A DNA stretch of 64,000 nucleotides from Minisyncoccota bacterium. GTDB lineage: Bacteria > Patescibacteriota > Microgenomatia > UBA1400 > PJMF01. Numbering within the stretch: the stretch's first letter is position 1; every line of letters starts with the position of its first letter. The notes below the pieces were generated by a model that made no database searches, was not told the origin of the DNA, and saw only the letters and a program-made list of their open reading frames with translations. The translations under genes and the position numbers were made by a program. Shown here piece by piece: positions 5,995 to 40,528 of the stretch. The stretch lies in NCBI GenBank assembly GCA_029881675.1, contig JAOUMD010000001.1, positions 2,930 to 66,929 of the forward strand, in the 5' to 3' direction.

Positions 5995-6044
5995 AAAAAA
6001 ACCTCCTATGTACTTAAGAGGAGGTAACTATTATTTATTTTGTC

Positions 6045-6142
6045 TTACGACCACATCTTTCCCTCTTAAGTGAATTGGGCACCGTGTCCTTGCCAGAGGC
6101 TCGGTTGCCGGGTGAATTGCTTCACCACTCTTGATGTATATA
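6045..6142 (-). promoter_or_regulatory. SAM-I-family (S-box) riboswitch aptamer in the metK 5' leader. The expression platform continues to about 5995, a CCUCCU...AGGAGG hairpin plus U7 that sequesters the SD immediately before the AUG.
   Basis: Minus-strand RNA reads 'UACAUCAAGAGUGGUGAAGCAAUUCACCCGGCAACCGAGCCUCUGGCAAGGACACGGUGCCCAAUUCACUUAAGAGGGAAAGAUGUGG'. It matches the SAM-I core 'AUCAAGAG.GGUG...CCCGGCAACC...GGUGCCAAUUCC...GAAAGAUG' with P1 closing CAUC/GAUG. P2 is shortened (GGUGAA-GCAA-UUCACC), reminiscent of SAM-I/IV variants. Confidence 0.7.
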
Positions 6143-12041: not shown

Positions 12042-13104
12042 TATGAATCTAATAGACTTATTTCAGCAACTAGTACAAATTGACTCTCCAACGGGAAAAG
12101 AAGAAAATATTTCTAACTTTGTTTCTAATTTTATCAAAGAAGAATGTAACCTTACTCCTCTTACTGACACACATAACAATGTTTTTGTAAAAGTAAAAGG
12201 AGTAGGGGAACCTATTTTTTTTAATGCTCACCTAGACACTGTTCAACCAGGGGAAAATATTGTTCCAATAATAGAAAATGGCATTATAAAAAGTCAAGGA
12301 AATACTATCTTGGGAGCAGATAATAAAGCTAGTGTTGCTGCAATCTTATCTTCCCTTAAAGATTTAAATACAAATAATTTAGAACATCGTCCTTTAGAAA
12401 TCCTTTTTACAATATCTGAAGAATCAGAGAACCTCGGTGCAATTAATTTTGATAAATCTATGATCAAATCAAAAATAGGTTACATCTTTGATCTAAATCG
12501 ACCTGTGGGAACGATTGTAAAATCAGCTCCATTCTATGCTAGGTTCTCAATAAAAATTAATGGTAAATCAGCCCACGCTTCAAGAAGAGATTTATCTATT
12601 CCAGCTATGGATTCATTAGTAGAAATAATTAATCTTATTGAGAAAGTTAGAAAAAAGGAATTAATAATAAATATTGGAGAAATTAACGGAGGAACTGCCA
12701 GAAATACTGTTATTGGAACTATTAGTATAGAAGGAGAATTTAGAAGTGTTAATAAAATCATCTTTTATAAAACAAAAGAACTTTTGGAAAAAAAACTTTC
12801 AGACATCAATGATAAAACAAAAAGTCAAATTTCATTTGAAATAATAGTAGAAAATCCTGGTTATTTACACACTGATGCAGAGATTAATTATGTTAAAACT
12901 ACTATTGAAAAAATACTTAATAAAAAAATTGACGTGATTGAAACAATGGGTTGTTCTGATGGGAATATTTTTAATAATGAAATAGGTCTCACTACCTTTG
13001 ATTTAGGAGATGGAGGTGAGGGAGCACACACTACAGATGAATCGATTAGTATAAGTAATTTATCTTTATTAAAAAAACTGGTTACAAACTTAATGATAAC
13101 TTAA
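12042..13104 (+). CDS. M20-family metallopeptidase (peptidase T / ArgE-DapE-like)
   Basis: N-terminus 'LIDLFQQLVQIDSPTGKEE' is typical of M20/M42 peptidases, with 'HLDTV' and 'GADNKASVAA' metal-ligand regions. The ORF-track start at 11950 overlaps the upstream gene, so the ATG at 12042 is preferred. Confidence 0.65.
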
Positions 13105-13634
13105 ATATTCTCTTCCAAATCCATATTTCTATCAATTAACTCTCTAATAATAGCTGCTTTAGTCTTATTGTATTTCTTGCTTACTGATTCTAAGTAATCA
13201 TCAATTCTTTGGCTAAGTGGTAAGTTCAATCTTACCTTCAGCTGATATTCCTCTAGTTTTTGTAAATCAAAGTTTTTACTAACCTCTGATTCAATAGATA
13301 GGGGAGTGTGGAGTAGTAGATAAGAAATTTCTGATTCTGTCAGGTAACCTCTACCAGCAATATCGAGTAGAGAATTAGCTTCTTCAATATATCTAATCCC
13401 ACGGTGATTAATTAATATCTCAATTAAAACTAAAATTGTTTTTCTATCTTTAGGAGTTCTTTTATCATTTTGCCAACGAGAAAGCTCACTATTACTAATA
13501 GTGATACCTGATTTGTAGAATTGATTGGAAAGCGCGTTTAGAGTCCTGAAGCCGGACTTCATTCTAAATAATTTAAATAGTTGACCAAAAGTATGTTTAT
13601 TATTAATTTGCGTCATAAGTATAAAACTACCCAC
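13101..13634 (-). CDS. Putative HTH transcriptional regulator (paralog of 26657..27148)
   Basis: 'FGQLFKLFRMKSGFRTLNALSNQF...SNSELSRWQNDKRTPKDRKTILVLIEIL' aligns with 'FGTLLKRYRKRAGFKTLASFADAL...SESILSRWQKGSRLPSDRKVYIIILRVF' of the other copy. The pattern looks like an XRE-like HTH. Confidence 0.5.
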   Translation of the reverse strand: MGSFILMTQINNKHTFGQLFKLFRMKSGFRTLNALSNQFYKSGITISNSELSRWQNDKRTPKDRKTILVLIEILINHRGIRYIEEANSLLDIAGRGYLTESEISYLLLHTPLSIESEVSKNFDLQKLEEYQLKVRLNLPLSQRIDDYLESVSKKYNKTKAAIIRELIDRNMDLEENI

Positions 13635-27853: not shown

Positions 27854-29725
27854 CTACTCCCACTCAGTGGTCCCGGGTGGCTTAGCAGTTAAATCATAAA
27901 CAACTCTGCTAATACCTTTTACTTCTTTAAGTATTCTAGAAACCATTGTATTTAGGTACTTCTCTGGAAAATCTACATTAGGAACTGCTGGTACTCCAGT
28001 CATAAAATCATTAGTAATAATGGTTCTAATAGCAATAGATCTATTTCCTTTTTTGGAGAAGGGTAGGGGAAGAGAAATAACAGGAACCTGACTTACCACT
28101 TTCATTAAATCATTTTCAAATAACTCCTCATTAACAATCTTATCTGCCTGACGTAATTGTTCAATTGTTTCTTTATTTAACTTTGTAGGAGTAATTTCAG
28201 TTACTGGGCCTGACTCTTTCTCTCCAAATAGATACACAACTCTATTTATTTTATGAAAAAGTTTAGGAATACTCTTTGCCATCTCAAATAATACAGGCCA
28301 ATCCATCTCACCACTAATGGCAACAACATAACTATATGTACGACCATCACCTTGAACACCAACTGATTGGATAGGAAGTAATGTTACTTGATGTTTATCT
28401 GTACAATATTTTTTCAGTCTTTTATTAATCTCTTCAAAATCATCTTCTATATATGGCTTCTTGGTACACAGAATACGAATAGCTAGACCAGGACCAGGGA
28501 ATGGATGTCTCCAAACCAAGTGTTTAGATAAACCTAGTTTTTCTCCTAACTGACGGACTTCATCTTTATGATAATCAGCTAATGGTTCAATCACTCTGCC
28601 TTGATTACGTAACTTTCTAACAAGCTCAGTATCATTATGATGAGTCTTAATTACATTGGCATTTTTGGATATGTTATCTGAAGCACTTTCAATTAGATCT
28701 GGTCTTAAAGTACCTTGAACTAGGTAGATATCTTCATCAGGTATATCTAATTCTCTTAATTCTTTTTCTGAAACTTTGATAAAGGTATCTCCAATTATTT
28801 TTCTCTTTTTCTCAGGTTCAATTGTCTCATTTAATGGGAGTGTTTCTTCTCCTTTTATCATAGTTTTGGCTGATAAAAATTCCCTAGAGACATCTACCAC
28901 TTTTAGTTTAAGACCGACTTTTCTTAAGGCTTTTTCAACTTGCTCACTCTCCTTATATCTCATAAAGCCATGATCAATATGAAGTGCAAATACTTTCTCA
29001 CTTCCTAATGCTTTTGTCACCAAAGCTGCAACTACAGTTGAGTCAACTCCACCACTAACTAAGACCAAAGCATAACCATCACCGACATGATTCTTAATTA
29101 ACTCAATGGCTTTTTCTTCACGATCTTTCATCTTATATATTGGCTTTAACTTAGCTACTTTAAATAAGAAATTAGCTAAGATATCTTTACCATTTACTGA
29201 TAGATCAACTTCTGGGTGAAACTGGACACCAAACCATGGTTTATTTTTATGTTCAATTCCGGCAATTAATTTTCCAGATTTAGCTATTACTCTAAACTCC
29301 TTACCAACCTGATCTACTGTGTCTCCGTGAGTTAACAATACAGTTTGTGTTGAGTCTAATGAATCAAAAAGTAAACTATCTGTTTCTACAGAGATATCAA
29401 AAACACCATCTTCTCTAACCGCTTTTTTTTCTACAGTGCCCCCATGGACATAATTAAGCAGTTGCATGCCATAACAAATACCAAAAATTGGGACAGAGAC
29501 TGAGAAAAGATCTGGATTATATTTTGGAGCATTCTCACCATAAACACTTTCAGGTCCACCTGAAATAATAATTGCTCCATATTGTGCTAACTCTGATGAA
29601 GGTGTTTCTAAAGGAAGGATAATTGACTCAACAGCTAGTTCACGAATTCTTCTATCGATAACTTTTGCATATTGTGCACCAGCATCTAGAATAGCTACTT
29701 GCTGTTTTTTATTAGGTTCAGTCAT
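27854..29725 (-). CDS. guaA: GMP synthase (glutamine-hydrolysing), long form
   Basis: N-terminal class-I glutamine amidotransferase ('GICYGMQLL', and the catalytic His in 'VQFHPEV') plus PP-loop 'ALVLVSGGVDSTVVAAL'. At 623 aa it is longer than the typical bacterial GuaA. Confidence 0.8.
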   Translation of the reverse strand: MTEPNKKQQVAILDAGAQYAKVIDRRIRELAVESIILPLETPSSELAQYGAIIISGGPESVYGENAPKYNPDLFSVSVPIFGICYGMQLLNYVHGGTVEKKAVREDGVFDISVETDSLLFDSLDSTQTVLLTHGDTVDQVGKEFRVIAKSGKLIAGIEHKNKPWFGVQFHPEVDLSVNGKDILANFLFKVAKLKPIYKMKDREEKAIELIKNHVGDGYALVLVSGGVDSTVVAALVTKALGSEKVFALHIDHGFMRYKESEQVEKALRKVGLKLKVVDVSREFLSAKTMIKGEETLPLNETIEPEKKRKIIGDTFIKVSEKELRELDIPDEDIYLVQGTLRPDLIESASDNISKNANVIKTHHNDTELVRKLRNQGRVIEPLADYHKDEVRQLGEKLGLSKHLVWRHPFPGPGLAIRILCTKKPYIEDDFEEINKRLKKYCTDKHQVTLLPIQSVGVQGDGRTYSYVVAISGEMDWPVLFEMAKSIPKLFHKINRVVYLFGEKESGPVTEITPTKLNKETIEQLRQADKIVNEELFENDLMKVVSQVPVISLPLPFSKKGNRSIAIRTIITNDFMTGVPAVPNVDFPEKYLNTMVSRILKEVKGISRVVYDLTAKPPGTTEWE

Positions 29726-29754
29726 ATTTATTAAATTTTAAATATATTAAATAA

Positions 29755-30360
29755 CTAATTATCAAGAATAATCTTGCCTTCTTCTGAAATAGATTCTATT
29801 GAAATAAGAGAGAAGACGGGTACTCCTGTTTCTTTTTCTATCTTTTCAACTCCACCTTGCCACTTCTTATCAAAGATTACCGCCAAACCAACAATCTCTA
29901 CACCATAATCTTGTAAGGCCTTTATTGCAGCAACAGCAGTACTACCATGAGCTACAACATCATCTACTATCAGCAATCTCATGCCAGGTTGTAAAAAGCC
30001 TATCTGACTAACAATATCATCTTGCCCTGTAGTAAAAGACTTATTACTAAACTTTACTACTGACTCCCAAGAGCTAGGTGCTATCTTAGTTCTTTTTGAA
30101 GGAAGAATTTTTCTAATTCGAAGCATATCTGCAACAATAGATACTAAGCGAGAACCTGCATCAGGTAATCCCACAATTGCATCTATTCTCGGATAATCAA
30201 CATAATGCTCAGCCCAAGATCTAGAAACAAGAGACAGTAAATCAGGATCTAAAGAAATATTAAACGGAACAGCTGTAATATAGCCCTTTTGAGCGTCTTT
30301 AACTTTTGCTATTGAAAGAAAACTATTACGAAGTATGGAGAGGGAGTCTGTGTTGTGCAT
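29755..30360 (-). CDS. Type I phosphoribosyltransferase, purine (adenine/xanthine) PRTase-like
   Basis: 'IDAIVGLPDAGSRLVSIVADML' and 'LLIVDDVVAHGSTAVAAIKALQDYGVEIVGLAVIFD' closely resemble the APRT/XPRT core. Lies 30 nt upstream of guaA on the same strand. Confidence 0.65.
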   Translation of the reverse strand: MHNTDSLSILRNSFLSIAKVKDAQKGYITAVPFNISLDPDLLSLVSRSWAEHYVDYPRIDAIVGLPDAGSRLVSIVADMLRIRKILPSKRTKIAPSSWESVVKFSNKSFTTGQDDIVSQIGFLQPGMRLLIVDDVVAHGSTAVAAIKALQDYGVEIVGLAVIFDKKWQGGVEKIEKETGVPVFSLISIESISEEGKIILDN

Positions 30361-30503: not shown

Positions 30504-31103
30504 ATGAAAAAAGAAATTATCATTGCTCAAGATATAGATGAATGTCTATTCAATTCTGTAAAAAAACATTATCAGGAATTAACAAAGATAGGAAAAAAAC
30601 TAGGTTGGACTAATTTGCCAACTTATGAAGAAGTTTGCTTACTGGGTGGAACACATGGTGCATATGGTAAACAGACTGGATACTGGGAAATAAATGAAGA
30701 AATGAGAAATAGCTCTGAATTTAACCAAGGATTAGAACCAATTGAAGGGTCACTTGAAGCTCTTACTCTCTTACAATCAATGCTTGGGATATATCTAACT
30801 ACTAGGCCAGAAAATTTAACTTTAATAACAGAGGAAGAACTTGATGAAGCTGGTTTTCCCAAAAGAGAAGTTGTCTGTAGACCTAAATCAATCCCATTAG
30901 AACACACTACTGAGTGGAAACTAGATGTCCTTAGGTATTTAGCACAAGAGAAGACGGCTACTATGATTGATGACTCTATGAGTTTGCATAATGCCATCTT
31001 AAAAGCAAATGATCCTAGAATAGAAACTGTTCTTTTTCAAGGTCCTATGACTCCAAAGGGTAAAGGTAAAACATGGAAAAAAATTAGAGAAGAATTAAAG
31101 TAG
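30504..31103 (+). CDS. HAD-superfamily phosphatase, NT5C-like (paralog of 14875..15516)
   Basis: See the paralog alignment under 14875..15516. Divergently paired with a PRTase, as the first copy is. Confidence 0.5.
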   Translation: MKKEIIIAQDIDECLFNSVKKHYQELTKIGKKLGWTNLPTYEEVCLLGGTHGAYGKQTGYWEINEEMRNSSEFNQGLEPIEGSLEALTLLQSMLGIYLTTRPENLTLITEEELDEAGFPKREVVCRPKSIPLEHTTEWKLDVLRYLAQEKTATMIDDSMSLHNAILKANDPRIETVLFQGPMTPKGKGKTWKKIREELK

Positions 31104-31238
31104 TAATTATTAATATCTTTTAGCATGAATAGTTATTAATTTTAAAATATTTTGACAATCATTCTTCCAAAGTATAAAATTATTTTTCAGAGCTTAGATA
31201 AAAAAGAAAATTTCTTTGTATCTAAACTCTGATTTTTT

Positions 31239-31862
31239 ATGACAAACAAAAATAATGGAATAATAATAGCAATCGTTGGACCACACTATAGTGGAAAATC
31301 TACTTTATCTCAGAAATTATTTCATGAGAGTAACTTCTCAACAGTAGAAGAAAAATGGCTTGAAGATCCATTTACACAATTTCGCAAAAAAGGTGACTAC
31401 TTAAAATCACAAATATGGTTTCTTACAGAAACTATGAAAACAATGCTTGAAGCCATTAACATGAAAAATAATGGTTCTAAAATTGTCTTAGATACTTTTG
31501 TAAATACTACCCGAGCATTTTGTAGATCTAAACTTTCTACGCAAGATTTTAAAATATTTAACATTGTTTTTGACAATATTGTCAAGGATTTTCCTTTACC
31601 TGATCTAATAATCTATCTCACAGGATCAGTAGATGCTCTTAAACAAAGAAGTATTATTAGAGCCAAATCGGGAACTGGTCCAGATAGTGATAAAAACGTT
31701 TCTCTTGAATGGATAAAAAAATCTATTGATGCAAATGAAGAAGAATTTGGAAACTGGACCAAAACACCGATAATTAAGATTGATGTTTCAAATAAAGATG
31801 TAATAAATAACAAATTAGATTACAACGAACTTTTACAAAAGGTCATTAACACCCAGAACTAA
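31239..31862 (+). CDS. P-loop nucleoside/nucleotide kinase, deoxynucleoside-kinase-like
   Basis: Walker A 'IIAIVGPHYSGKSTLSQKL' at the N-terminus. About 207 aa with dNK/dNMP-kinase-like spacing. Specificity unknown. Confidence 0.45.
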   Translation: MTNKNNGIIIAIVGPHYSGKSTLSQKLFHESNFSTVEEKWLEDPFTQFRKKGDYLKSQIWFLTETMKTMLEAINMKNNGSKIVLDTFVNTTRAFCRSKLSTQDFKIFNIVFDNIVKDFPLPDLIIYLTGSVDALKQRSIIRAKSGTGPDSDKNVSLEWIKKSIDANEEEFGNWTKTPIIKIDVSNKDVINNKLDYNELLQKVINTQN

Positions 31863-31996
31863 TTTATATCTCAATATATTCTATTTAATAAATTAATTTC
31901 TATAATATGAAATTTTTCTTCTTTATATTCTTTTCTATGTTTTTTTCTTAAAAAATTACGATAATAATTAGATTTCCTCACATAATTCTTGACTCC

Positions 31997-34312
31997 ATGG
32001 TCAAAAATAATTCATTACCAGATGAAATAATCTACAACATTAGATTATTAAATTCTATTAGAATCATTATGGTAAAAGAAATACAATCCTTTGCCCCTCA
32101 GGCAGAACAACTAAGACAAAGACGAGACAGTTGGTTAAGAATGTTTGATAAAGACTTAAGATCTAAAATGTCTGAGCGACAAGGTTTTAAATCAGAATTA
32201 CCCTTAACTGCTCATTTCTTAATTGACGGATCAGTAAAAATTCCCTTTGCAGAGTTTTCTCAACTGCCTGACTGGATGAAAAAATTCTTCCTTGACGATA
32301 GAGTTTCTCGTCCACCATCAGTCTCAGTTTTTTCAGATTACAATGATAGTTTAGAACATCCAGAAGTTTTAGCGTCAGTTCAAAATAACACTAAAGATAT
32401 AGTTCTAAGAGGGGGTCGTTTTTGGGATTTTGATGGAAGTAAAGCAAACTATGGACCAGACGGGGCAGAAGCAGTTGAACTACTCTTTGAAAACATTAAC
32501 GGAAATATGTCAATAATAAATCAATTAATTAATTTTGAACCTCAAAATGAATTTGAATGGTTGGCAAGAATTGCAGCATGGGAATATATTAGAAATGATT
32601 TTTGTGCTGTCTATTATTCTTTAAAATGTAGAATTGCGAAAGTTGATGATGCTTCTGCACATGAATTGGGTGTTATTGATCACGCACTTGAATATATTTC
32701 AAATAGATACTTTGACAGTATCCTCATGTTTCAAACAGATCCCCATAGAGGTTCTAGAGAATTAAGTGAGATAGTGAATAATGCAGAAGAAATAAAATCT
32801 ACTTTAAGTGAGTTTGTTTCTGATCCTCAATTTGAAGGGCGAGATCTACTCAGATCTCATAGAGAAGTTAACAACCCACTATCATTAATGAATGCTTTTA
32901 GATTAATTTATAAATCTGACAGTGATTCTAATGAACTTAGTTATACTGATGAAATTAAAAATAATGATGCCATTTTAGCTCCTCTTTATGGGGGAATTGA
33001 TTTGGCCTATGCTTTCAGATATGCTCTCGGTGATGGGCAAAGATATATTGAACAACTTCTAGATACTAAGCTATGTGATGATAAAAAATTTGTTAAAGTT
33101 TTACCTGTACTCTCAAAACTAGGAAGTAAGGGTGTTGTTAGATCCCAATTATCTAAGATTGATTCAGTAATTCCAAATTTAAATTCAGATGAGTCTGTTA
33201 ATGGTAGAGAGAAGGGCTGGTTGGCTAAAGAAATTCCAGATGCCAGAAGTATTCTAGTTATTGATGACTCTCTAGCGACAGGTGGATCAGCGGTAGTATT
33301 CAAAGATTGGGTCTCTGAAGCACTTGGACATGATGTTGAAATGGAACTTAGAGTAATTTATGCCAACCTAAGATGGTCAAAACACCAATGTCCAATAGAA
33401 GATTTAATGGCAGCAGATCCTATTACTCAAACTCCAATTACTAGAAGCATGAAAAAGGCTCTATATCCACTTGGTAGTAGATTTATGCCAGATGCAGTAA
33501 GCAATCATCTACAACAAAAAACAAAACGGACTTTTTCAAGTTTAACTGATGCAATGCCAGAGATAACTAAAATGCATCAGAAAAAAACTATTGAAGCTGT
33601 TGGCTTTGATCTTGATGACACACTAATACTACGTACTGTTGATGCTAAAGCAAGAAGAATCATGATTAACCATTCTATACTTAGACTTCTAAATCAGAAC
33701 GGGATTACTATAGATCCCGATCTATATGCAGAACGTAGTTATAAAATTCTTAATAGGGAGAGGGGATTATCTCAAACTAATCCCAACCATCCTATTGATA
33801 TGGATTCTTGTAATAAAGAAATTTTAATTGACCTAGGTATAACAGATAAAGCTCAATTAAAAATCTTAGCCCCACTAATGACTCTTGAAGAACTTAAAGT
33901 AGATCAAAAAATTGTGATTCCAGCTCCTGGAGCAAGAGAGATATTAGAAGAACTAATTAGCTTAGGAATAGACTTTGGAATATTTTCAAATTCTCACTAT
34001 CTTGTCCAACACATTGAACAAATTCTTATTGCTGCTGGGATTGATGATCTACTAATAGATAGAACTCTTCTAACCTCAGCTAATCCAGGTACCCCTCAAA
34101 AACCTGATGGACAAGCAATAAAAAATCTTGCTAAAGAAATGGGTACCATAGTTCAAGACCTTGCATATGTTGGTAATTCATTCCAAACAGATGTGGTTGG
34201 TTCGACAAAGAGTGGCGGAGTTTCAATATATATACCCCAACCAGTAGATGCTATAAGTAGAGCAGAAATAACTAAAATAAAAAATTGGAAAGAACAATTA
34301 GCCAATGTCTAA
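31997..34312 (+). CDS. Multidomain protein: unknown N-terminal domain (about 400 aa), then a type I PRTase domain, then a C-terminal HAD phosphatase domain
   Basis: PRTase motif 'ILVIDDSLATGGSAVVF' near aa 420. HAD motif I 'AVGFDLDDTLI', motif II 'GIFSNS', and a motif III/IV region 'K...VGNSFQTDVVG'. Confidence 0.55.
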   Translation: MVKNNSLPDEIIYNIRLLNSIRIIMVKEIQSFAPQAEQLRQRRDSWLRMFDKDLRSKMSERQGFKSELPLTAHFLIDGSVKIPFAEFSQLPDWMKKFFLDDRVSRPPSVSVFSDYNDSLEHPEVLASVQNNTKDIVLRGGRFWDFDGSKANYGPDGAEAVELLFENINGNMSIINQLINFEPQNEFEWLARIAAWEYIRNDFCAVYYSLKCRIAKVDDASAHELGVIDHALEYISNRYFDSILMFQTDPHRGSRELSEIVNNAEEIKSTLSEFVSDPQFEGRDLLRSHREVNNPLSLMNAFRLIYKSDSDSNELSYTDEIKNNDAILAPLYGGIDLAYAFRYALGDGQRYIEQLLDTKLCDDKKFVKVLPVLSKLGSKGVVRSQLSKIDSVIPNLNSDESVNGREKGWLAKEIPDARSILVIDDSLATGGSAVVFKDWVSEALGHDVEMELRVIYANLRWSKHQCPIEDLMAADPITQTPITRSMKKALYPLGSRFMPDAVSNHLQQKTKRTFSSLTDAMPEITKMHQKKTIEAVGFDLDDTLILRTVDAKARRIMINHSILRLLNQNGITIDPDLYAERSYKILNRERGLSQTNPNHPIDMDSCNKEILIDLGITDKAQLKILAPLMTLEELKVDQKIVIPAPGAREILEELISLGIDFGIFSNSHYLVQHIEQILIAAGIDDLLIDRTLLTSANPGTPQKPDGQAIKNLAKEMGTIVQDLAYVGNSFQTDVVGSTKSGGVSIYIPQPVDAISRAEITKIKNWKEQLANV

Positions 34313-35153
34313 AATACCTATTATTATCGATACTGATGTCTTTGGTGACCCAGATGACATACTAGCCATTACCTACTTACTTGCAAACCAAGACAAGATA
34401 GAAATTAAACTTATCGTAACTGCTGATGAACATAAAGGGATGAGAGCAGCTTGGTTACAAAAAATATTCTCAAAAGCAGGGCTTGATGTTCCTATAGTGG
34501 CTGGCGTTGACCTCGGTAACACCAGACTTTTTCTTTTTGATGAAATTAACACTAGCAATGTAAATTTCAATTATCTTGAAGCAATCAAAGAAGTTATAGA
34601 ATCTAATGATTCAACTACATATCTTTGTATGGCTCCTCAATCTAACTTAGCTGCCTTTATTTCTAAATATCCTCACCTTAAAAATAAAATAGTTGTAAAA
34701 GGTATGGGTGCAGTTTTAGATATAGACTTAGGCAGAATAGAACACAATGTGAAATATGACATTGAAGCATTTAAAACAGTAGCTAGTCAGATGAAACCAC
34801 AACTCTTATTAGCTGATCATACTTGGCATGACAGTATGCAATTCCACAAAGAAACTGAGATGTATAAGATGATAGATAAAAGCACTAATCCTCTTGCTCT
34901 TGCAATAATAAAAAATGCCAATGCTTTTTACGATACCCTTTATCCTCAATCAAGATTTCATGATCCAATCTTAGCTAGTATTCTTCTTGATGACTTTCTA
35001 GAATTTACTCCTGACAAACTAATTGTTGAACCAAATGGATTTACAAGAAGACCTAAAAAAGGTGAAAAGGGGTGTGAAGTTACGGTAAGTAAAAGTGTTG
35101 ATTATGATAACTTATACACTCATTTCTTTAATAGTCTAAAACAATATCTCTAG
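34305..35153 (+). CDS. Inosine-uridine-preferring nucleoside hydrolase family protein
   Basis: N-terminal 'KIPIIIDTDVFGDPDDILAITYLL' is the IU-nucleoside-hydrolase aspartate cluster (D-x-D-x-x-x-D-D). 8-nt overlap with the upstream gene. Confidence 0.75.
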   Translation: MSKIPIIIDTDVFGDPDDILAITYLLANQDKIEIKLIVTADEHKGMRAAWLQKIFSKAGLDVPIVAGVDLGNTRLFLFDEINTSNVNFNYLEAIKEVIESNDSTTYLCMAPQSNLAAFISKYPHLKNKIVVKGMGAVLDIDLGRIEHNVKYDIEAFKTVASQMKPQLLLADHTWHDSMQFHKETEMYKMIDKSTNPLALAIIKNANAFYDTLYPQSRFHDPILASILLDDFLEFTPDKLIVEPNGFTRRPKKGEKGCEVTVSKSVDYDNLYTHFFNSLKQYL

Positions 35154-35168
35154 CTACAAAATATATTT

Positions 35169-35678
35169 ATGAAAATTAACCTATCAAAACACATAGAAAC
35201 TGTAATTAAAGCTCATGTAGATCACCCCAAAGAAGAAATCAATAAATATCGTTTCTTTGATAAAAAGACACCGTATGTTGTCCATCCAATATGGTGTGCT
35301 ACTACTATATTAACAGAGCCAAAACTTGATTTTGACCTAAGACAAAAAGGAGCATTATCACTTCTATACCACGATGTTTTAGAAGATACTTTAGCTCCAT
35401 TACCAGAAGATTTGCCAAGTGAAATTAAAGAATGGATTAGAGACATGACCTTTGATGGGGGCTTTGAAGAAGAACAGGTTAAACTATTCACAAAGCCAAA
35501 AGAAGTTTTACTCTTTAAGCTTTATGATAAAACCTCAAACTTACTGGATGCCACTTGGATGGATAAAGAGTTATATAAAACATATTTTGACTTTACTCAA
35601 AAGTTATCAAAGAAAGTAACCAAACATTACGGAGAGTTAAATATTACTAAGATACTTGGTACCTTAAAATATAGATAG
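35169..35678 (+). CDS. HD-domain phosphohydrolase (YfbR-like 5'-deoxynucleotidase candidate)
   Basis: 'VHPIWCA' (the His) and 'LLYHDVLEDT' (the HD motif). 169 aa. Confidence 0.55.
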   Translation: MKINLSKHIETVIKAHVDHPKEEINKYRFFDKKTPYVVHPIWCATTILTEPKLDFDLRQKGALSLLYHDVLEDTLAPLPEDLPSEIKEWIRDMTFDGGFEEEQVKLFTKPKEVLLFKLYDKTSNLLDATWMDKELYKTYFDFTQKLSKKVTKHYGELNITKILGTLKYR

Positions 35679-35681
35679 TAT

Positions 35682-36248
35682 TTAATAATACTTATCTTCC
35701 TTAGCCATCTCTTCTACAAGTAATGATCTAATAATATCTGCCTTTGATTTGTTCATCTTTTGAGACTTCTCGTTAAGAAAGTTAACTAAGTCTGAAGAAA
35801 GCATCATATTAAACCTTTGGTCCTTTTCTTTTGAAATAAAGTTAATTGCATTGCTAATAATCTCTCTTAAGTTACTTTGGTTATAACCTAAGACAATTAA
35901 CTTATCTGATTTAATATCTTTGAGGATATGAGGTGTAGCTGAGTCTTTATGCAAGGCAATTACAAACTTATTATGTAATAGAGCCATACTTATTTCTTGA
36001 CCTATTCCTATTGAAGAATGAGTAACTTCAACAACAATCACATCTGCATCTTTCTTTTGTTTAGAGATCATTTCTTGTTCTAATAGATTTTCCTTCTCAC
36101 TCTTATTAAAATACTGATCTTTATTATTAAATCTTCTTTCAAAAAGGTTTACATAACCTAATTCCTCAAAGTAGTCACAAATTAAATTACAATCTTTTTT
36201 TAACTCACTGGTCATCTTGCTGATGGAGACAGAGAAGTAGATTTTCAT
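35682..36248 (-). CDS. DNPH1(Rcl)/nucleoside-2-deoxyribosyltransferase-like domain fused to a C-terminal ribbon-helix-helix domain (paralog A; catalytic Glu retained)
   Basis: 'MKIYFSVS' N-terminus. 'DVIVVEVTHSSIGIGQEISMALLHNKFVIAL' aligns to Rcl 'VVVAEVTQPSLGVGYELGRAVALGKPILCLF', with Glu at the nucleophile position. C-terminal 'QRFNMMLSSDLVNFLNEKSQKMNKSKADIIRSLLVEEM' is a beta-strand / helix / turn / helix RHH pattern. Confidence 0.6.
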   Translation of the reverse strand: MKIYFSVSISKMTSELKKDCNLICDYFEELGYVNLFERRFNNKDQYFNKSEKENLLEQEMISKQKKDADVIVVEVTHSSIGIGQEISMALLHNKFVIALHKDSATPHILKDIKSDKLIVLGYNQSNLREIISNAINFISKEKDQRFNMMLSSDLVNFLNEKSQKMNKSKADIIRSLLVEEMAKEDKYY

Positions 36249-36811
36249 TAGTTATTCTGCTTTTTCATATCCATTCTAATTAACTCTCTTATGTGCGAAG
36301 ACTTAGGCTTTCTATTTTTCTTCGATAGTTTATTTAAATAATTAATCAACTCAGGTTCTAACATTAAATTAAATCTCTTTAACTGCCTCCCTTTGGCATA
36401 TTCAAGTCCTTCTTCAACGACATCCTCCAAATTTGATCCATCATATTCTAAATATATAAAGTTCTCATCATCCATACCTTTTAAAAACACTGATTCATAT
36501 CCTATTTCATGAAATGCAAGAATAGTCTTATTTTGTTCTAAAGCCATAGTTACCTCATGACCAATATTAATTGTTGATGGAAATGACATTTCTGCTATTA
36601 CTAGATCACATTTCCCAATCCACTTAACAACTTTTTTATAATACTTTGTTGAAGTATCCAGAGTTTTGTTTCTAATATCATCCATTGAGACATCTAAAAT
36701 ATGGTCTGCTTTAATAGTATGACCTAGATCTTCAGCTCGTTTTACAATCCTCTCAAAGAAGTCTTTATGGTCTTTTCTGAAATAAATAGAACCAGTGAAA
36801 TATATATTCAT
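36248..36811 (-). CDS. DNPH1/NDT-like + RHH fusion (paralog B; catalytic Glu retained)
   Basis: 'MNIYFTGSIY', 'DLVIAEMSFPSTINIGHEVTMAL', and C-terminal 'KRFNLMLEPELINYLNKLSKKNRKPKSSHIRELIRMDM'. 4-nt overlaps with both neighbours. Confidence 0.6.
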   Translation of the reverse strand: MNIYFTGSIYFRKDHKDFFERIVKRAEDLGHTIKADHILDVSMDDIRNKTLDTSTKYYKKVVKWIGKCDLVIAEMSFPSTINIGHEVTMALEQNKTILAFHEIGYESVFLKGMDDENFIYLEYDGSNLEDVVEEGLEYAKGRQLKRFNLMLEPELINYLNKLSKKNRKPKSSHIRELIRMDMKKQNN

Positions 36812-37374
36812 TTATTTAACTCAACTTTCATCAACTCATTAATAGCTTTTCGAATTATTTGAGCTTTAGACATTTTATTCTTTTTTGAGTAATCGTTAAG
36901 GAAATTTATCATTTGAGGAGAAAGCATTAAGTTAAAACGCTTATCTTGATTTCCAGAAAAATAATCAAATGCATCTGAAATAACATCATCAATACTTTCA
37001 TATGTATATTCTGATACGACTAGATTAGGGTCATGAATTCCTGAGAGAAAAAATGGAGCATTTCCTTTTGAATATAAACACAAAGTTGGTTTTGATAACT
37101 CAATACCTTTATTAATTAGGTAGCCCATTGATAAACTATGAATAGATACTTCTACAACTATTACATAAGCTTTTTTCAAGTTAGTAAGTGTATTCTGATA
37201 GTGCTGATCAATCTCTTCTAATGAATATTCGTAAAAACTATCTGGATCATTATTTATAACTAAATCTGAAGTATGTTTACCATAGGCAGATAGTGACTTA
37301 TATATCTTATTTAAGTTATCAGATTGTTCTTTTATTCTTAAGGAACGAGGGGAGCCGGTGAAGAATATTTTCAC
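36808..37374 (-). CDS. DNPH1/NDT-like + RHH fusion (paralog C; nucleophile Glu replaced by Leu, N-terminal Tyr replaced by Phe)
   Basis: 'MKIFFTGSP', 'YVIVVEVSIHSLSMGYLINKGIELSKPTLCLY', and C-terminal 'KRFNLMLSPQMINFLNDYSKKNKMSKAQIIRKAINELM'. Confidence 0.55.
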   Translation of the reverse strand: MKIFFTGSPRSLRIKEQSDNLNKIYKSLSAYGKHTSDLVINNDPDSFYEYSLEEIDQHYQNTLTNLKKAYVIVVEVSIHSLSMGYLINKGIELSKPTLCLYSKGNAPFFLSGIHDPNLVVSEYTYESIDDVISDAFDYFSGNQDKRFNLMLSPQMINFLNDYSKKNKMSKAQIIRKAINELMKVELNK

Positions 37375-37931
37375 AAATCTTTCCCCTTCATATCTTCTTT
37401 AATCAAACCTCTTATATAAACAGCTTTTGGAGTTTTTGTTTTCTTTGATAACTTATTCAAATACAGATTCATCTTCTTACTAAGCATCATGTTATATCTA
37501 ACATCATTCTCAAAAAACAAATTATCTAATGCTAAATCAATTACTTTCTTATAATTTTTTTCTGAATACTCCCACAATTGAAACCTCTCATCATCTATAC
37601 CTTCAATAAAGAGTTGCCTATTTCCTTTTGTATATAGACAGATTACATTCTTCTCATGCTTTAAAGCATGTAATATCTGAAAACCAATAGTAATACTAGG
37701 AGTAGAGGTCTCTAAAATAACGACATCACTCTTCTTCATTAACGAATCAGCTTGATCATAAACATGCTTAATGTGAAAGGAAGTAGGTTTATAAAAATCT
37801 TCAAAGTTTTCTTTAGAAAGGTAATCTAAAACAATTTTATGTCCTATGTCTTGAAGGTAAGACTGGACTTTTGTTACCAAGTTGATCTGTTTCTTATCTG
37901 ATCTTCCAGATAAGTTTAGATATATATTCAT
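37371..37931 (-). CDS. DNPH1/NDT-like + RHH fusion (paralog D; Glu replaced by Gln)
   Basis: 'MNIYLNLSG', 'DVVILETSTPSITIGFQILHALKHEKNVICLY', and C-terminal 'VRYNMMLSKKMNLYLNKLSKKTKTPKAVYIRGLIKEDM'. First gene of the four-gene minus-strand operon. Confidence 0.55.
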   Translation of the reverse strand: MNIYLNLSGRSDKKQINLVTKVQSYLQDIGHKIVLDYLSKENFEDFYKPTSFHIKHVYDQADSLMKKSDVVILETSTPSITIGFQILHALKHEKNVICLYTKGNRQLFIEGIDDERFQLWEYSEKNYKKVIDLALDNLFFENDVRYNMMLSKKMNLYLNKLSKKTKTPKAVYIRGLIKEDMKGKDL

Positions 37932-38073
37932 ACTTGGTATTAGATTCTATCATACAAAAGTGTAATAGATACGTCTTTTAAATATTCCATTCTCAAGAAT
38001 AGATGATAAAATTTATAGAATTTGGTGTAAAATATACACAGCCAATAAATATCAGTTATTTAGAAAGACGGCA

Positions 38074-38643
38074 ATGAAAATTTTCTTGAGCGCTTCAATC
38101 TACGGTAAACAACATCTTGAGGATAGTTGTAAGAAGATTGTTGAACTAACTAAGAAAAGTGGTAATACTATTGTTGCTGATCATATTTTAAGCACTACAA
38201 GTGAAGACATGCTTAAATGGCAAAAAGATAAAGATATTGAATTTCATAACTTTGTTATGAATGGTGTAAAGAACTCTGATGCAGTTTTTGCAGAAATTTC
38301 ACACCCAAGTACTTCAGTAGGTTACTTAATTGCTATTGCAGCCCAAACAGGTAAGCCAGTAGTTTGTTTTTATAATGGGGATAAAAAACCTCACCTCTTT
38401 AATACTCTAGAACAACAAAATGATAAGTTTGTAGTGGTTGAATATCATAAGCCTGAAGATTTAGACAAACTTGTCCCAGAAATGATTGAGTTTATTCATG
38501 AAGGACAAGATACTAGATTTAACTTCTTTGTTACTCCAAAACATATTAACTATATGAACTGGATTGCTAAAAATAAACGAATTCCTAGGTCTGTTTTCTT
38601 GAGGAGATTGATTGAAGAGGAGATGAAGAAGAATGAATTTTGA
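38074..38643 (+). CDS. DNPH1/NDT-like + RHH fusion (paralog E; Glu replaced by Leu, Tyr replaced by Phe)
   Basis: 'MKIFLSASIYGKQHLEDSCKKIVELTKKSGNTIVADHIL' aligns to the Rcl N-terminus 'LYFCGSIRGGRED..LY.RIV..L...G.VLTEHV'. Also 'AVFAEISHPSTSVGYLIAIAAQTGKPVVCFY' and C-terminal 'TRFNFFVTPKHINYMNWIAKNKRIPRSVFLRRLIEEEM'. Confidence 0.6.
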   Translation: MKIFLSASIYGKQHLEDSCKKIVELTKKSGNTIVADHILSTTSEDMLKWQKDKDIEFHNFVMNGVKNSDAVFAEISHPSTSVGYLIAIAAQTGKPVVCFYNGDKKPHLFNTLEQQNDKFVVVEYHKPEDLDKLVPEMIEFIHEGQDTRFNFFVTPKHINYMNWIAKNKRIPRSVFLRRLIEEEMKKNEF

Positions 38644-39958: not shown

Positions 39959-40528
39959 ATGAAAATTCACTTTATCGGAGATCTTAATGGAGACATTGCA
40001 CAATACGAAAGTATTATAAACCTAATTGAAAAATTAGGTCATAGAATCGTCACAAAACATTTTATTAAAAGAAGTTTCGAAGAACTTAAAAATGAAACCG
40101 ATAAAGATGCCGCTGATTATTCAAAAAAAATGAAAAAGTGGATTAATGGATCTGATGCTGTGATAGTAGAAATTACAAAACCAGGGCTAGGCTCGGGTTA
40201 TGAAATATCAACTGCACTAGCGTTAAGTAAACCAGTTATTGTTTTATTTAAAGAAAATCAAAAAAATAGCCCTCATGTGTTAAAAGGTATTGAATCTGAT
40301 AAGTTACAAGTAATGAATTACAACATGGATAACCTTTCTGATTTACTAAACGACGCACTAGACTACGCCTCATCCCAACAAGACACCCGCTTCAACTTCT
40401 TTGTAGCCCCTAAGCACATTAACTTCTTAGATTGGGTAGCAAAGAATAAGAAGATACCTAGATCTGTTTTCCTTAGAAGACTTATCGAAAGAGAAATAGC
40501 TAATGATGAACAGTATTCTAATCAGTAA
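39959..40528 (+). CDS. DNPH1/NDT-like + RHH fusion (paralog F; Glu retained, N-terminal Tyr replaced by His)
   Basis: 'MKIHFIGDL', 'AVIVEITKPGLGSGYEISTALALSKPVIVLF' (closest of the six to the Rcl core), and a C-terminal 'TRFNFFVAPKHINFLDWVAKNKKIPRSVFLRRLIEREI' that is nearly identical to paralog E's C-terminus. Confidence 0.6.
   Translation: MKIHFIGDLNGDIAQYESIINLIEKLGHRIVTKHFIKRSFEELKNETDKDAADYSKKMKKWINGSDAVIVEITKPGLGSGYEISTALALSKPVIVLFKENQKNSPHVLKGIESDKLQVMNYNMDNLSDLLNDALDYASSQQDTRFNFFVAPKHINFLDWVAKNKKIPRSVFLRRLIEREIANDEQYSNQ

What the first reader, a model, noticed from the sequence alone, without database searches (positions are those of the whole stretch)
31997..34312. Large uncharacterised N-terminal domain on the PRTase+HAD fusion protein
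The first roughly 400 aa of the 771-aa protein show no motif I could recognise, yet are fused to the PRTase and HAD domains and are translationally coupled (8-nt overlap) to the nucleoside hydrolase and then the HD gene. This could be a substrate-recognition or regulatory module specific to this pathway.
Basis: seen in the sequence. Interest (0 to 1): 0.5.

Follow-up and report, generated by a model that had tools for sequence, protein, structure and literature searches.

The report
Orphan N-terminal domain capping a phosphoribosyltransferase
A three-part nucleotide-recycling enzyme from a tiny uncultured (CPR) bacterium carries a real, strongly conserved N-terminal domain of about 260 residues that matches no known protein family or solved fold, is known from only about a dozen sequences, and always sits next to a nucleoside-splitting enzyme.

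Summary

The domain is as conserved as the PRTase core and more conserved than the HAD domain. It keeps about 20 invariant, mostly charged residues. AlphaFold places it in one compact unit with the PRTase (pTM 0.87). The overlapping IUNH gene follows in every lineage where downstream DNA is visible.

An assembly artefact is excluded. My best reading is a lineage-specific acceptor or active-site module of a PRTase that is coupled to a nucleosidase for nucleotide salvage. Its function is inferred, not shown.

The parts
31997..32068 (+). Residues 1-24 of the annotated ORF; probably not translated (5' extension of the ORF call)
   Evidence: Nine of the 10 homologues have no counterpart to these residues (P0007 has its own unrelated extension) and the alignment begins at or after Met25 of the window protein. 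In close relatives the start overlaps the stop of the upstream dNK gene. Not proven for this genome.
32069..32866 (+). Orphan N-terminal domain (residues 25-290): long helix 33-59, small beta/short-helix subdomain about 64-156, four-helix bundle about 157-274
   Evidence: AlphaFold2 model from the 11-sequence alignment: pLDDT 80.9, pTM 0.87. No hit in Pfam, NCBIfam, PHROGs, PADLOC or PDB. Found only in this architecture among 1.84 billion representatives. Mean pairwise identity 34.4% with 8.6% invariant columns, equal to the PRTase core. Lowest dN of all domains.
32216..32233 (+). Conserved motif FLIDGS (residues 74-79; F74, D77 and G78 invariant)
32405..32464 (+). Most conserved N-domain motif LRGxRFxDxDGKxxxGPD (residues 137-156; L137, G139, D146, G147, K149, G153 and P154 invariant, R138 nearly so)
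   Evidence: It gives only a borderline PDB sequence match (2kxi_A, E = 0.018 over 42 aa).
32555..32599 (+). Helix motif EWLAxxAAWEYIRND (residues 187-201; Y197, N200 and D201 invariant, W188 nearly so)
32843..32878 (+). Junction motif DLxRSHRExxNP (residues 283-294; D283, R286, R289, E290 and P294 invariant, H288 nearly so) between the N-domain and the PRTase core
   Evidence: It lies just before the first PRTase helix in the model.
32876..33364 (+). Type I phosphoribosyltransferase core (residues about 294-456): PPi loop APLYGGID 328-335, disordered flexible loop about 373-396, PRPP loop ILVIDDSLATGGS 419-431 (D423 and D424 invariant)
33365..33580 (+). Linker / C-terminal extension of the PRTase (residues 457-528; W460, P480 and P498 invariant); low model confidence
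33581..34246 (+). HAD phosphatase domain with helical cap (residues about 529-750): motif I FDLDDTL 537-543, motif II FSNS 663-666, motif III K702, motif IV GNSxxxD 726-732
   Evidence: Pfam PF00702 37.7 bits and PF13419 28.7 bits, both above cut-off. NCBIfam gives HAD subfamily hits only below cut-off. Motif positions. This is the least conserved module: 2.3% invariant columns, second Asp of motif I lost in distant members, and the domain largely missing in P0011.
34305..35153 (+). Nucleoside hydrolase (IUNH family), translationally coupled (8-nt overlap); the invariable partner gene
   Evidence: Pfam PF01156 60 bits. An overlapping IUNH gene lies downstream of the homologue in every lineage seen. 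The DTDxxxDxDD, EHN and HD motifs are invariant among 8 partner proteins.
31239..31862 (+). Deoxynucleoside kinase family gene upstream (same strand); frequent partner
   Evidence: Pfam PF01712 55 bits. It lies directly upstream and overlaps the homologue in the P0002-P0005 lineages, and lies nearby in L011. The best promoter-like site is at 31152-31180.
35169..35678 (+). Small RelA/SpoT-type HD-like protein, 15 nt downstream of the IUNH gene; not a conserved partner
   Evidence: Weak matches only and no Pfam hit. No recognisable counterpart follows the IUNH gene in the seven homologue contexts; the cut-off ORF after it in L006 has no family hit.

Best explanation
The protein is a multidomain nucleotide-salvage enzyme of Microgenomates-group CPR bacteria. 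Residues 25-290 form a domain restricted to this family: one long helix, a small beta subdomain and a four-helix bundle. I read it as an integral part of the PRTase catalytic unit, not as an independent housekeeping domain.

It sits where the 'hood' (acceptor-binding part) of type I PRTases lies, and is predicted to pack tightly on the PRTase core. It contributes invariant polar residues: D77, R102, R138, D146, K149, N166, Y197, N200, D201, D240, D283, R286, H288, R289 and E290. My reading is that these shape the acceptor and/or pyrophosphate side of the active site and so set the substrate specificity.

The proposed pathway runs as follows. The co-translated nucleoside hydrolase releases a base from scavenged nucleosides. 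The PRTase joins that base to PRPP to give a 5'-nucleotide. The C-terminal HAD phosphatase either dephosphorylates scavenged nucleotides to feed the hydrolase or converts the product into a riboside. The upstream deoxynucleoside kinase handles the direct route.

Shown here: the domain is real, conserved and family-specific; the PRTase and HAD folds and motifs; the invariable gene pairing. Inferred: the role of the N-domain, the identity of the acceptor, and the order of the reactions.
For: - Occurrence: the N-domain is found only in this architecture. 8 cluster representatives out of 1.84 billion carry it, all 620-760 aa.
- Conservation: 11 sequences at 23-62% identity align over their full length. 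The N-domain has 34.4% mean pairwise identity and 8.6% invariant columns, the same as the PRTase core (34.4%, 8.8%) and above the HAD domain (30.0%, 2.3%). Its dN is the lowest of all domains, with dN/dS about 0.1 where it can be computed.
- Structure: the model of N-domain + PRTase reaches pLDDT 80.9 and pTM 0.87, which implies a confident single unit.
- HAD: the domain scores above the Pfam cut-off.
- Gene pairing: an overlapping IUNH gene follows in all 8 lineages with downstream sequence. The partner keeps its catalytic motifs.
- Minimal unit: P0011 has lost most of the HAD domain but keeps N-domain + PRTase + IUNH.
- Neighbourhood: the neighbours are nucleotide-metabolism genes. These are dNK, an XPRT-like PRTase, GuaA, NUDIX and Nuc_deoxyrib_tr paralogues in the window, and ThyA, a dCTP deaminase/dUTPase-family protein (DCD) and a thymidylate kinase fusion in L007.
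- Literature: CPR bacteria generally lack de novo nucleotide synthesis (PMC7304191). Auxotrophic protozoa use nucleoside hydrolase plus PRTase for salvage (PMC10474468).
Against: - No coordinates or PAE were available, so I could not check that the invariant N-domain residues face the PRPP or acceptor pocket.
- The alignment behind the model has only 11 sequences.
- If all three activities acted on the same base and sugar, nucleotidase + nucleosidase + PRTase would form a futile cycle. At least one substrate must therefore differ from the naive scheme.
- A standalone XPRT-like PRTase and a HAD-like gene already lie nearby.
- For the window protein, the PRTase sequence signal is below Pfam's threshold.
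Confidence: 0.4

Rival explanations
1. The N-domain is an allosteric or regulatory ligand-sensing module. Its four-helix bundle plus small beta subdomain binds a nucleotide or other metabolite and tunes the PRTase and/or HAD activity. It does not contribute directly to catalysis.
Confidence: 0.22
2. The N-domain is an independent, previously undescribed catalytic domain that supplies a fourth activity. Together with the nucleosidase, PRTase and phosphatase it would form a base- or sugar-exchange pathway making a riboside: the base is released by the hydrolase, re-attached to a phosphosugar diphosphate, then dephosphorylated. The logic resembles PRPP-dependent ribosylation followed by a HAD phosphatase.
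Against: No fold or sequence match to any enzyme family. The PRTase here keeps the classical adjacent DD motif, unlike CriT. The gene context is nucleotide salvage, not glycan or secondary metabolism. The HAD domain is dispensable in P0011. The organisms have very small genomes.
Confidence: 0.15
3. The N-domain is mainly a docking platform that holds the co-translated nucleoside hydrolase, or replaces the second subunit of the usual PRTase dimer, so that the released base is channelled to the PRTase.
For: Strict, translationally coupled pairing with the IUNH gene in every lineage. From general knowledge, type I PRTases normally complete their active sites across a dimer interface.
Against: Nothing tested here bears on complex formation. 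Invariant charged motifs are more typical of ligand binding than of interfaces.
Confidence: 0.15
4. The fusion or the N-terminal region is an assembly or gene-calling artefact.
For: Only the first 24 codons look like an over-extended ORF call.
Against: The same architecture appears in 11 sequences from independent samples and assemblers, including the closed genome CP065002.1. There is strong purifying selection on the N-domain.
Confidence: 0.02

Closest known systems
Type I purine/pyrimidine phosphoribosyltransferases (OPRT, APRT, XGPRT/HGPRT; Pfam PF00156)
   Different: Sequence similarity is confined to the PRPP loop (15-16 bits, below the Pfam cut-off). The usual small hood is replaced or preceded by a conserved 260-aa domain. 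The core is fused to a HAD phosphatase.
Bcs3 CriT-CrpP of Haemophilus influenzae type b (PRPP-dependent ribofuranosyltransferase + HAD phosphatase; PMC10299916)
   Different: CriT has a split D/E pair instead of the DD motif and an open site for a polymer acceptor. The domain order is reversed (phosphatase first). Its context is capsule synthesis, whereas here it is nucleotide salvage with a nucleosidase. No sequence similarity was detected.
Nucleoside hydrolase + PRTase salvage of purine/pyrimidine-auxotrophic protozoa (for example Trichomonas, trypanosomatids)
   Same: The same two-step logic, nucleoside to base to NMP, in an organism lacking de novo synthesis (PMC10474468, PMC10208901; PMC7304191).
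   Different: In protozoa the enzymes are separate single-domain proteins without the N-domain or a HAD fusion, and the genes are not coupled.
PRTase + phosphatase modules proposed to make nucleoside-like metabolites (Ter-associated cluster)
   Same: In my recollection of the original Ter-cluster analysis (Anantharaman, Iyer & Aravind 2012; not checked here) the PRTases are paired with a HAD phosphatase and predicted to make a nucleoside-like metabolite. [quoted passage not shown]
   Different: No Ter genes are present here, PADLOC gives no hit, and no sequence relationship was shown.

Membership tests
Type I phosphoribosyltransferase (PF00156) | PRPP-binding loop: four hydrophobic residues, two acidic residues, then xx-[STA]-[ST]-G-x-[ST] | tested here: met
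   ILVIDDSLATGGS at 419-431. D423 and D424 are invariant and S425 nearly invariant across 11 homologues. This loop is the segment that aligns to APRT chains.
Type I phosphoribosyltransferase (PF00156) | Five-stranded parallel alpha/beta core fold | tested here: met
Type I phosphoribosyltransferase (PF00156) | Score above Pfam's gathering threshold | tested here: not met
   15.1-16.2 bits against 26.3 for the window protein. 6 of 11 homologues match at E <= 1, best 2e-6.
Type I phosphoribosyltransferase (PF00156) | PRPP-dependent transfer of ribose-5-P to a base | not testable with these tools
   Needs an enzyme assay.
HAD superfamily phosphatase (PF00702 / PF13419) | Motifs I (DxDxT), II (S/T), III (K) and IV (acidic), plus a Pfam score above the cut-off | tested here: met
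   D538-L-D540-D-T542, S664, K702 and G726-N-S-xxx-D732. PF00702 37.7 bits against 26.4. In the five most distant full-length members (P0006-P0010) motif I is DLYET, so the second Asp is lost.
Any described family for residues 25-290 (Pfam, NCBIfam, PHROGs, PADLOC, PDB sequences, PDB folds, BFVD) | Significant sequence-profile or fold match | tested here: not met
CriT/CrpP-type PRPP-dependent ribofuranosyltransferase-phosphatase | Split D...E pair replacing the DD motif; polymer or O-nucleophile acceptor; glycan-synthesis context | tested here: not met
IUNH nucleoside hydrolase (PF01156), partner gene | N-terminal Asp cluster, E-x-N and H-D motifs, and a Pfam score above the cut-off | tested here: met
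   60.2 bits against 34.2. DTDxxxDPDD, EHN and HD are invariant in 8 partner proteins. Equating these motifs with the Ca2+ and catalytic residues rests on my knowledge of the family, and the Asp cluster has a 2-residue insertion relative to RihA.

The most novel reading that the evidence does not exclude
Residues 25-290 are a new catalytic or substrate-defining domain. Together with the PRTase, the HAD phosphatase and the obligatorily coupled nucleosidase, it would form a channelled base- or sugar-exchange machine. Such a machine could rebuild ribonucleotides or ribosides from scavenged (deoxy)nucleosides, or make an unusual riboside. That would be a CPR-specific solution to living without de novo nucleotide synthesis.
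Probability: 0.15. Interest if true: 0.65.

Novelty: new variant of a known kind. Interest (0 to 1): 0.42.

Why it matters
CPR/Patescibacteria depend on scavenged nucleotides, yet most of their salvage enzymology is inferred from distant homology. This is a compact, conserved gene pair: N-domain + PRTase + HAD, followed by a nucleosidase. Its largest and best-conserved unexplained piece has no relatives outside about a dozen sequences. If the domain sets acceptor specificity or adds a reaction, it would define a new way of building a PRTase active site and a lineage-specific salvage step. If it is only a structural cap, the finding is a modest addition to domain catalogues. In either case it is a well-delimited candidate for a new domain family and for a simple biochemical test.

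Tried and rejected
- Single-sequence and per-member scans of Pfam, NCBIfam, PHROGs and PADLOC found nothing for the N-domain.
- PDB sequence profiles built from 4 and from 11 sequences gave only borderline local matches. One was 2kxi_A, E = 0.018 over the LRGxRFYDxDGKxxWGP motif. I recall that entry as Neisseria NarE, but could not verify this. The other was vWF-A 'FLLDGS' at E about 0.3. The family does not keep a MIDAS DxSxS motif. I rejected both as probable chance.
- The first AlphaFold run (full length, 4 sequences) was too poor to use (pLDDT 58.8). The second (N-domain + PRTase, 11 sequences) was good.
- The two extra hits of the exhaustive HMMER search (P0012, P0013) are repeat or Ig-like proteins matched in many short stretches, so I treated them as unrelated.
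- No internal duplication: hhalign between the N-domain and the PRTase region matched only the 16 residues shared by the two alignments. There is no second copy of the N-domain in the window.
- No riboswitch or other Rfam element lies upstream of the gene. The promoter scan is not above chance overall.
- A defence-system or phage origin is not supported: there are no PADLOC or PHROG hits and no relatives in IMG/VR.
- Scans of the GTDB species representatives and of JGI metagenomes each returned only one contig, and both were already known.
- The search for homologous proteins with the N-domain alignment returned nothing at all, even though its own members are in that collection. I treat this as a tool limitation.
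- Literature searches found no description of this family.

Full report
**What is at the coordinates.** The ORF 31997-34312 (+) exists and encodes 771 aa. Public databases hold the identical protein as 'HAD hydrolase-like protein [Candidatus Pacebacteria bacterium]', from a 211-kb contig. Its stop overlaps the next start by 8 nt (…GCC AAT GTC TAA / ATG TCT AAA). That next gene is an inosine-uridine nucleoside hydrolase (IUNH) family protein (PF01156, 60 bits). A third gene follows a 15-nt spacer. It is only weakly RelA/SpoT-HD-like, with no Pfam hit and E = 0.002-0.07 against spoT_relA, a GTP pyrophosphokinase chain and HDDC3. A deoxynucleoside kinase family gene lies upstream on the same strand (PF01712, 55 bits).

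**Domain map.** Pfam places a solid HAD domain at 532-740 and a sub-threshold PRTase match at 321-434 (15 bits against 26.3). NCBIfam sees nothing in residues 1-400.

Only three close homologues turned up in the 5.8-billion-protein word-indexed search (54-62% identity, same length). They align from Met25 of the window protein, so the first 24 codons are probably an over-extended ORF call.

An exhaustive HMMER search of 1.84 billion cluster representatives with the N-terminal profile found 8 genuine hits. These are P0002 and P0005-P0011, with E from 1e-145 to 1e-13. All are 620-760 aa, and all align over the full length with the same order of N-domain, PRTase and HAD. Two further weak hits are repeat proteins and unrelated.

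The two members that carry an organism name are Pacebacteria and Woesebacteria, the latter from the closed genome CP065002.1. Scans of GTDB species representatives, JGI metagenomes and IMG/VR added nothing new. The family is therefore genuine but very rare, and the N-terminal domain is never seen alone or in another architecture.

**Structure.** A full-length AlphaFold model built from 4 sequences was poor (pLDDT 58.8). With the 11-sequence alignment of residues 25-528 the model reached pLDDT 80.9 and pTM 0.87. In protein numbering it shows:
- a long helix at 33-59;
- a small subdomain of short strands and helices at about 64-156;
- a four-helix bundle at about 157-274;
- from about 294, a Rossmann-like alpha/beta core with a disordered loop at about 381-396.

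A pTM of 0.87 over 504 residues implies that the N-terminal part and the alpha/beta core are predicted as one confidently packed unit. This is inference, because no PAE or coordinates were available.

The best sequence lead is a 42-residue match of the motif LRGxRFYDxDGKxxWGP to PDB 2kxi (E = 0.018). It is borderline, and I treat it as chance.

The domain is under strong constraint:
- Mean pairwise identity is 34.4% with 8.6% invariant columns. The PRTase core has the same values (34.4%, 8.8%), and the HAD domain is lower (30.0%, 2.3%).
- It has the lowest dN of all domains between close relatives, although dS is saturated.
- Its invariant residues are mostly polar or charged: D77, R102, D146, K149, N166, Y197, N200, D201, D283, R286, R289 and E290, plus the nearly invariant R138, H288, Y206/207 and D240. 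This pattern is more typical of a ligand or active site than of a scaffold.
- The motif DLxRSHRExxNP lies exactly at the junction with the PRTase core.

**Genomic association.** In every lineage where downstream DNA is visible, the gene is followed by an overlapping IUNH gene. That covers the window plus seven homologue lineages, down to 23% identity. The partner proteins keep the Asp cluster and the EHN and HD motifs, so they look catalytically competent.

A dNK gene overlaps the 5' end in the closer lineages and lies nearby in another. P0011 lacks most of the HAD domain yet keeps the N-domain, the PRTase and the coupled IUNH gene. The conserved functional core is therefore N-domain + PRTase + nucleosidase.

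The surroundings are nucleotide metabolism. In the window these are GMP synthase, an XPRT-like PRTase, NUDIX and six Nuc_deoxyrib_tr-like paralogues. In L007 they are thymidylate synthase, a dCTP deaminase/dUTPase-family protein (DCD) and a thymidylate kinase fusion. No riboswitch precedes the gene. Nothing points to a defence system or a phage.

**Interpretation.** CPR bacteria generally cannot make nucleotides de novo (PMC7304191). Auxotrophic protozoa solve the same problem with nucleoside hydrolases plus PRTases.

The most economical reading is a salvage module. The nucleosidase frees a base, and the PRTase re-attaches it to PRPP. The HAD phosphatase either feeds the hydrolase by dephosphorylating scavenged nucleotides or converts the product into a riboside.

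Within that scheme I assign the N-domain the role of an enlarged, family-specific hood or active-site module of the PRTase (confidence about 0.4). Four arguments support this: its position, the predicted packing, conservation equal to that of the catalytic core, and exclusive co-occurrence with this PRTase.

Rivals that remain open are an allosteric four-helix-bundle sensor, an independent new catalytic domain, and a docking platform for the nucleosidase.

**Verdict.** The artefact explanation is excluded.

The domain is an orphan with respect to every library I could search. The main gaps are that AFDB and HHpred-type searches of the isolated domain could not be run, and that its function is inferred. 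I classify it as a new variant of a known kind: a type I PRTase/HAD salvage enzyme with a previously undescribed conserved N-terminal domain. I rate its interest as moderate.

Noticed in passing
window 35682-38643 and 39959-40528 (also 13101-13634, -): Six paralogous genes of about 187-189 aa: four in tandem on the minus strand and two on the plus strand. Each pairs a nucleoside 2-deoxyribosyltransferase-like N-terminal half with a ribbon-helix-helix (CopG-like) C-terminal tail (phmmer E 1e-21 to 1e-28 between copies; Pfam PF05014 33 bits and RHH_1 16 bits for one copy). A distant seventh copy lies at 13101-13634. An enzyme-like domain fused to a DNA-binding tail and amplified sixfold next to the salvage operon is unusual.
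   Followed up: partly
window 6026-6142 (-): SAM-I/IV riboswitch aptamer above Rfam's gathering score (57 bits against 41.1). It is the only Rfam family found in the window.
   Followed up: no
window 31863-32068: In the window, an AT-rich spacer of 135-206 nt separates the dNK stop from the start of the fusion gene. In the relatives P0002-P0005 the two genes overlap by 4-8 nt. No Rfam element or clear signal was found in the spacer. The first 24 codons of the annotated ORF lie inside it and are probably not translated.
   Followed up: partly
homologues P0006-P0011 (loci L009, L011, L012, L013); window 33605-33625 for comparison: The HAD motif I is DLDDT in the window clade but DLYET in the distant members, so the second Asp (the general acid/base) is lost. 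P0011 lacks the cap and motif II altogether. The phosphatase module therefore appears to be changing function or decaying, while N-domain + PRTase + IUNH stay intact.
   Followed up: partly
L007 3967-9193: Upstream of the dNK - fusion gene - IUNH triad in the P0005 contig there is a thymidylate synthase fused to MtrA-like and pterin-binding DUF4346 domains, a dCTP deaminase/dUTPase-family protein, a 521-aa protein with no Pfam hit, and a Nuc_deoxyrib_tr + thymidylate kinase fusion. Together these form a dense cluster of unusual nucleotide-metabolism fusions.
   Followed up: no
window 27854-30360 (-): A standalone xanthine/adenine-PRTase-like gene (63 bits to the XPRT model, below its cut-off) lies directly downstream of glutamine-hydrolysing GMP synthase (496 bits). 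This suggests a xanthine to XMP to GMP salvage pair separate from the fusion protein. A 199-aa protein with a DxD start motif and no family hit lies at 30504-31103.
   Followed up: no
window 35169-35678 (+): This small protein of 169 aa carries an H...HD...D pattern. It is detectable only weakly as RelA/SpoT-type HD (HDDC3/Mesh1-like) and matches no Pfam model. No recognisable counterpart follows the IUNH gene in the seven homologue contexts (the cut-off ORF after it in L006 has no family hit).
   Followed up: partly
window 31239-31862 (+): The dNK-family kinase also hits PADLOC models VakA (E = 1.7e-9) and PDC-M51B, and weakly the ribosylnicotinamide kinase part of NadR. This is probably generic P-loop kinase similarity.
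   Followed up: no
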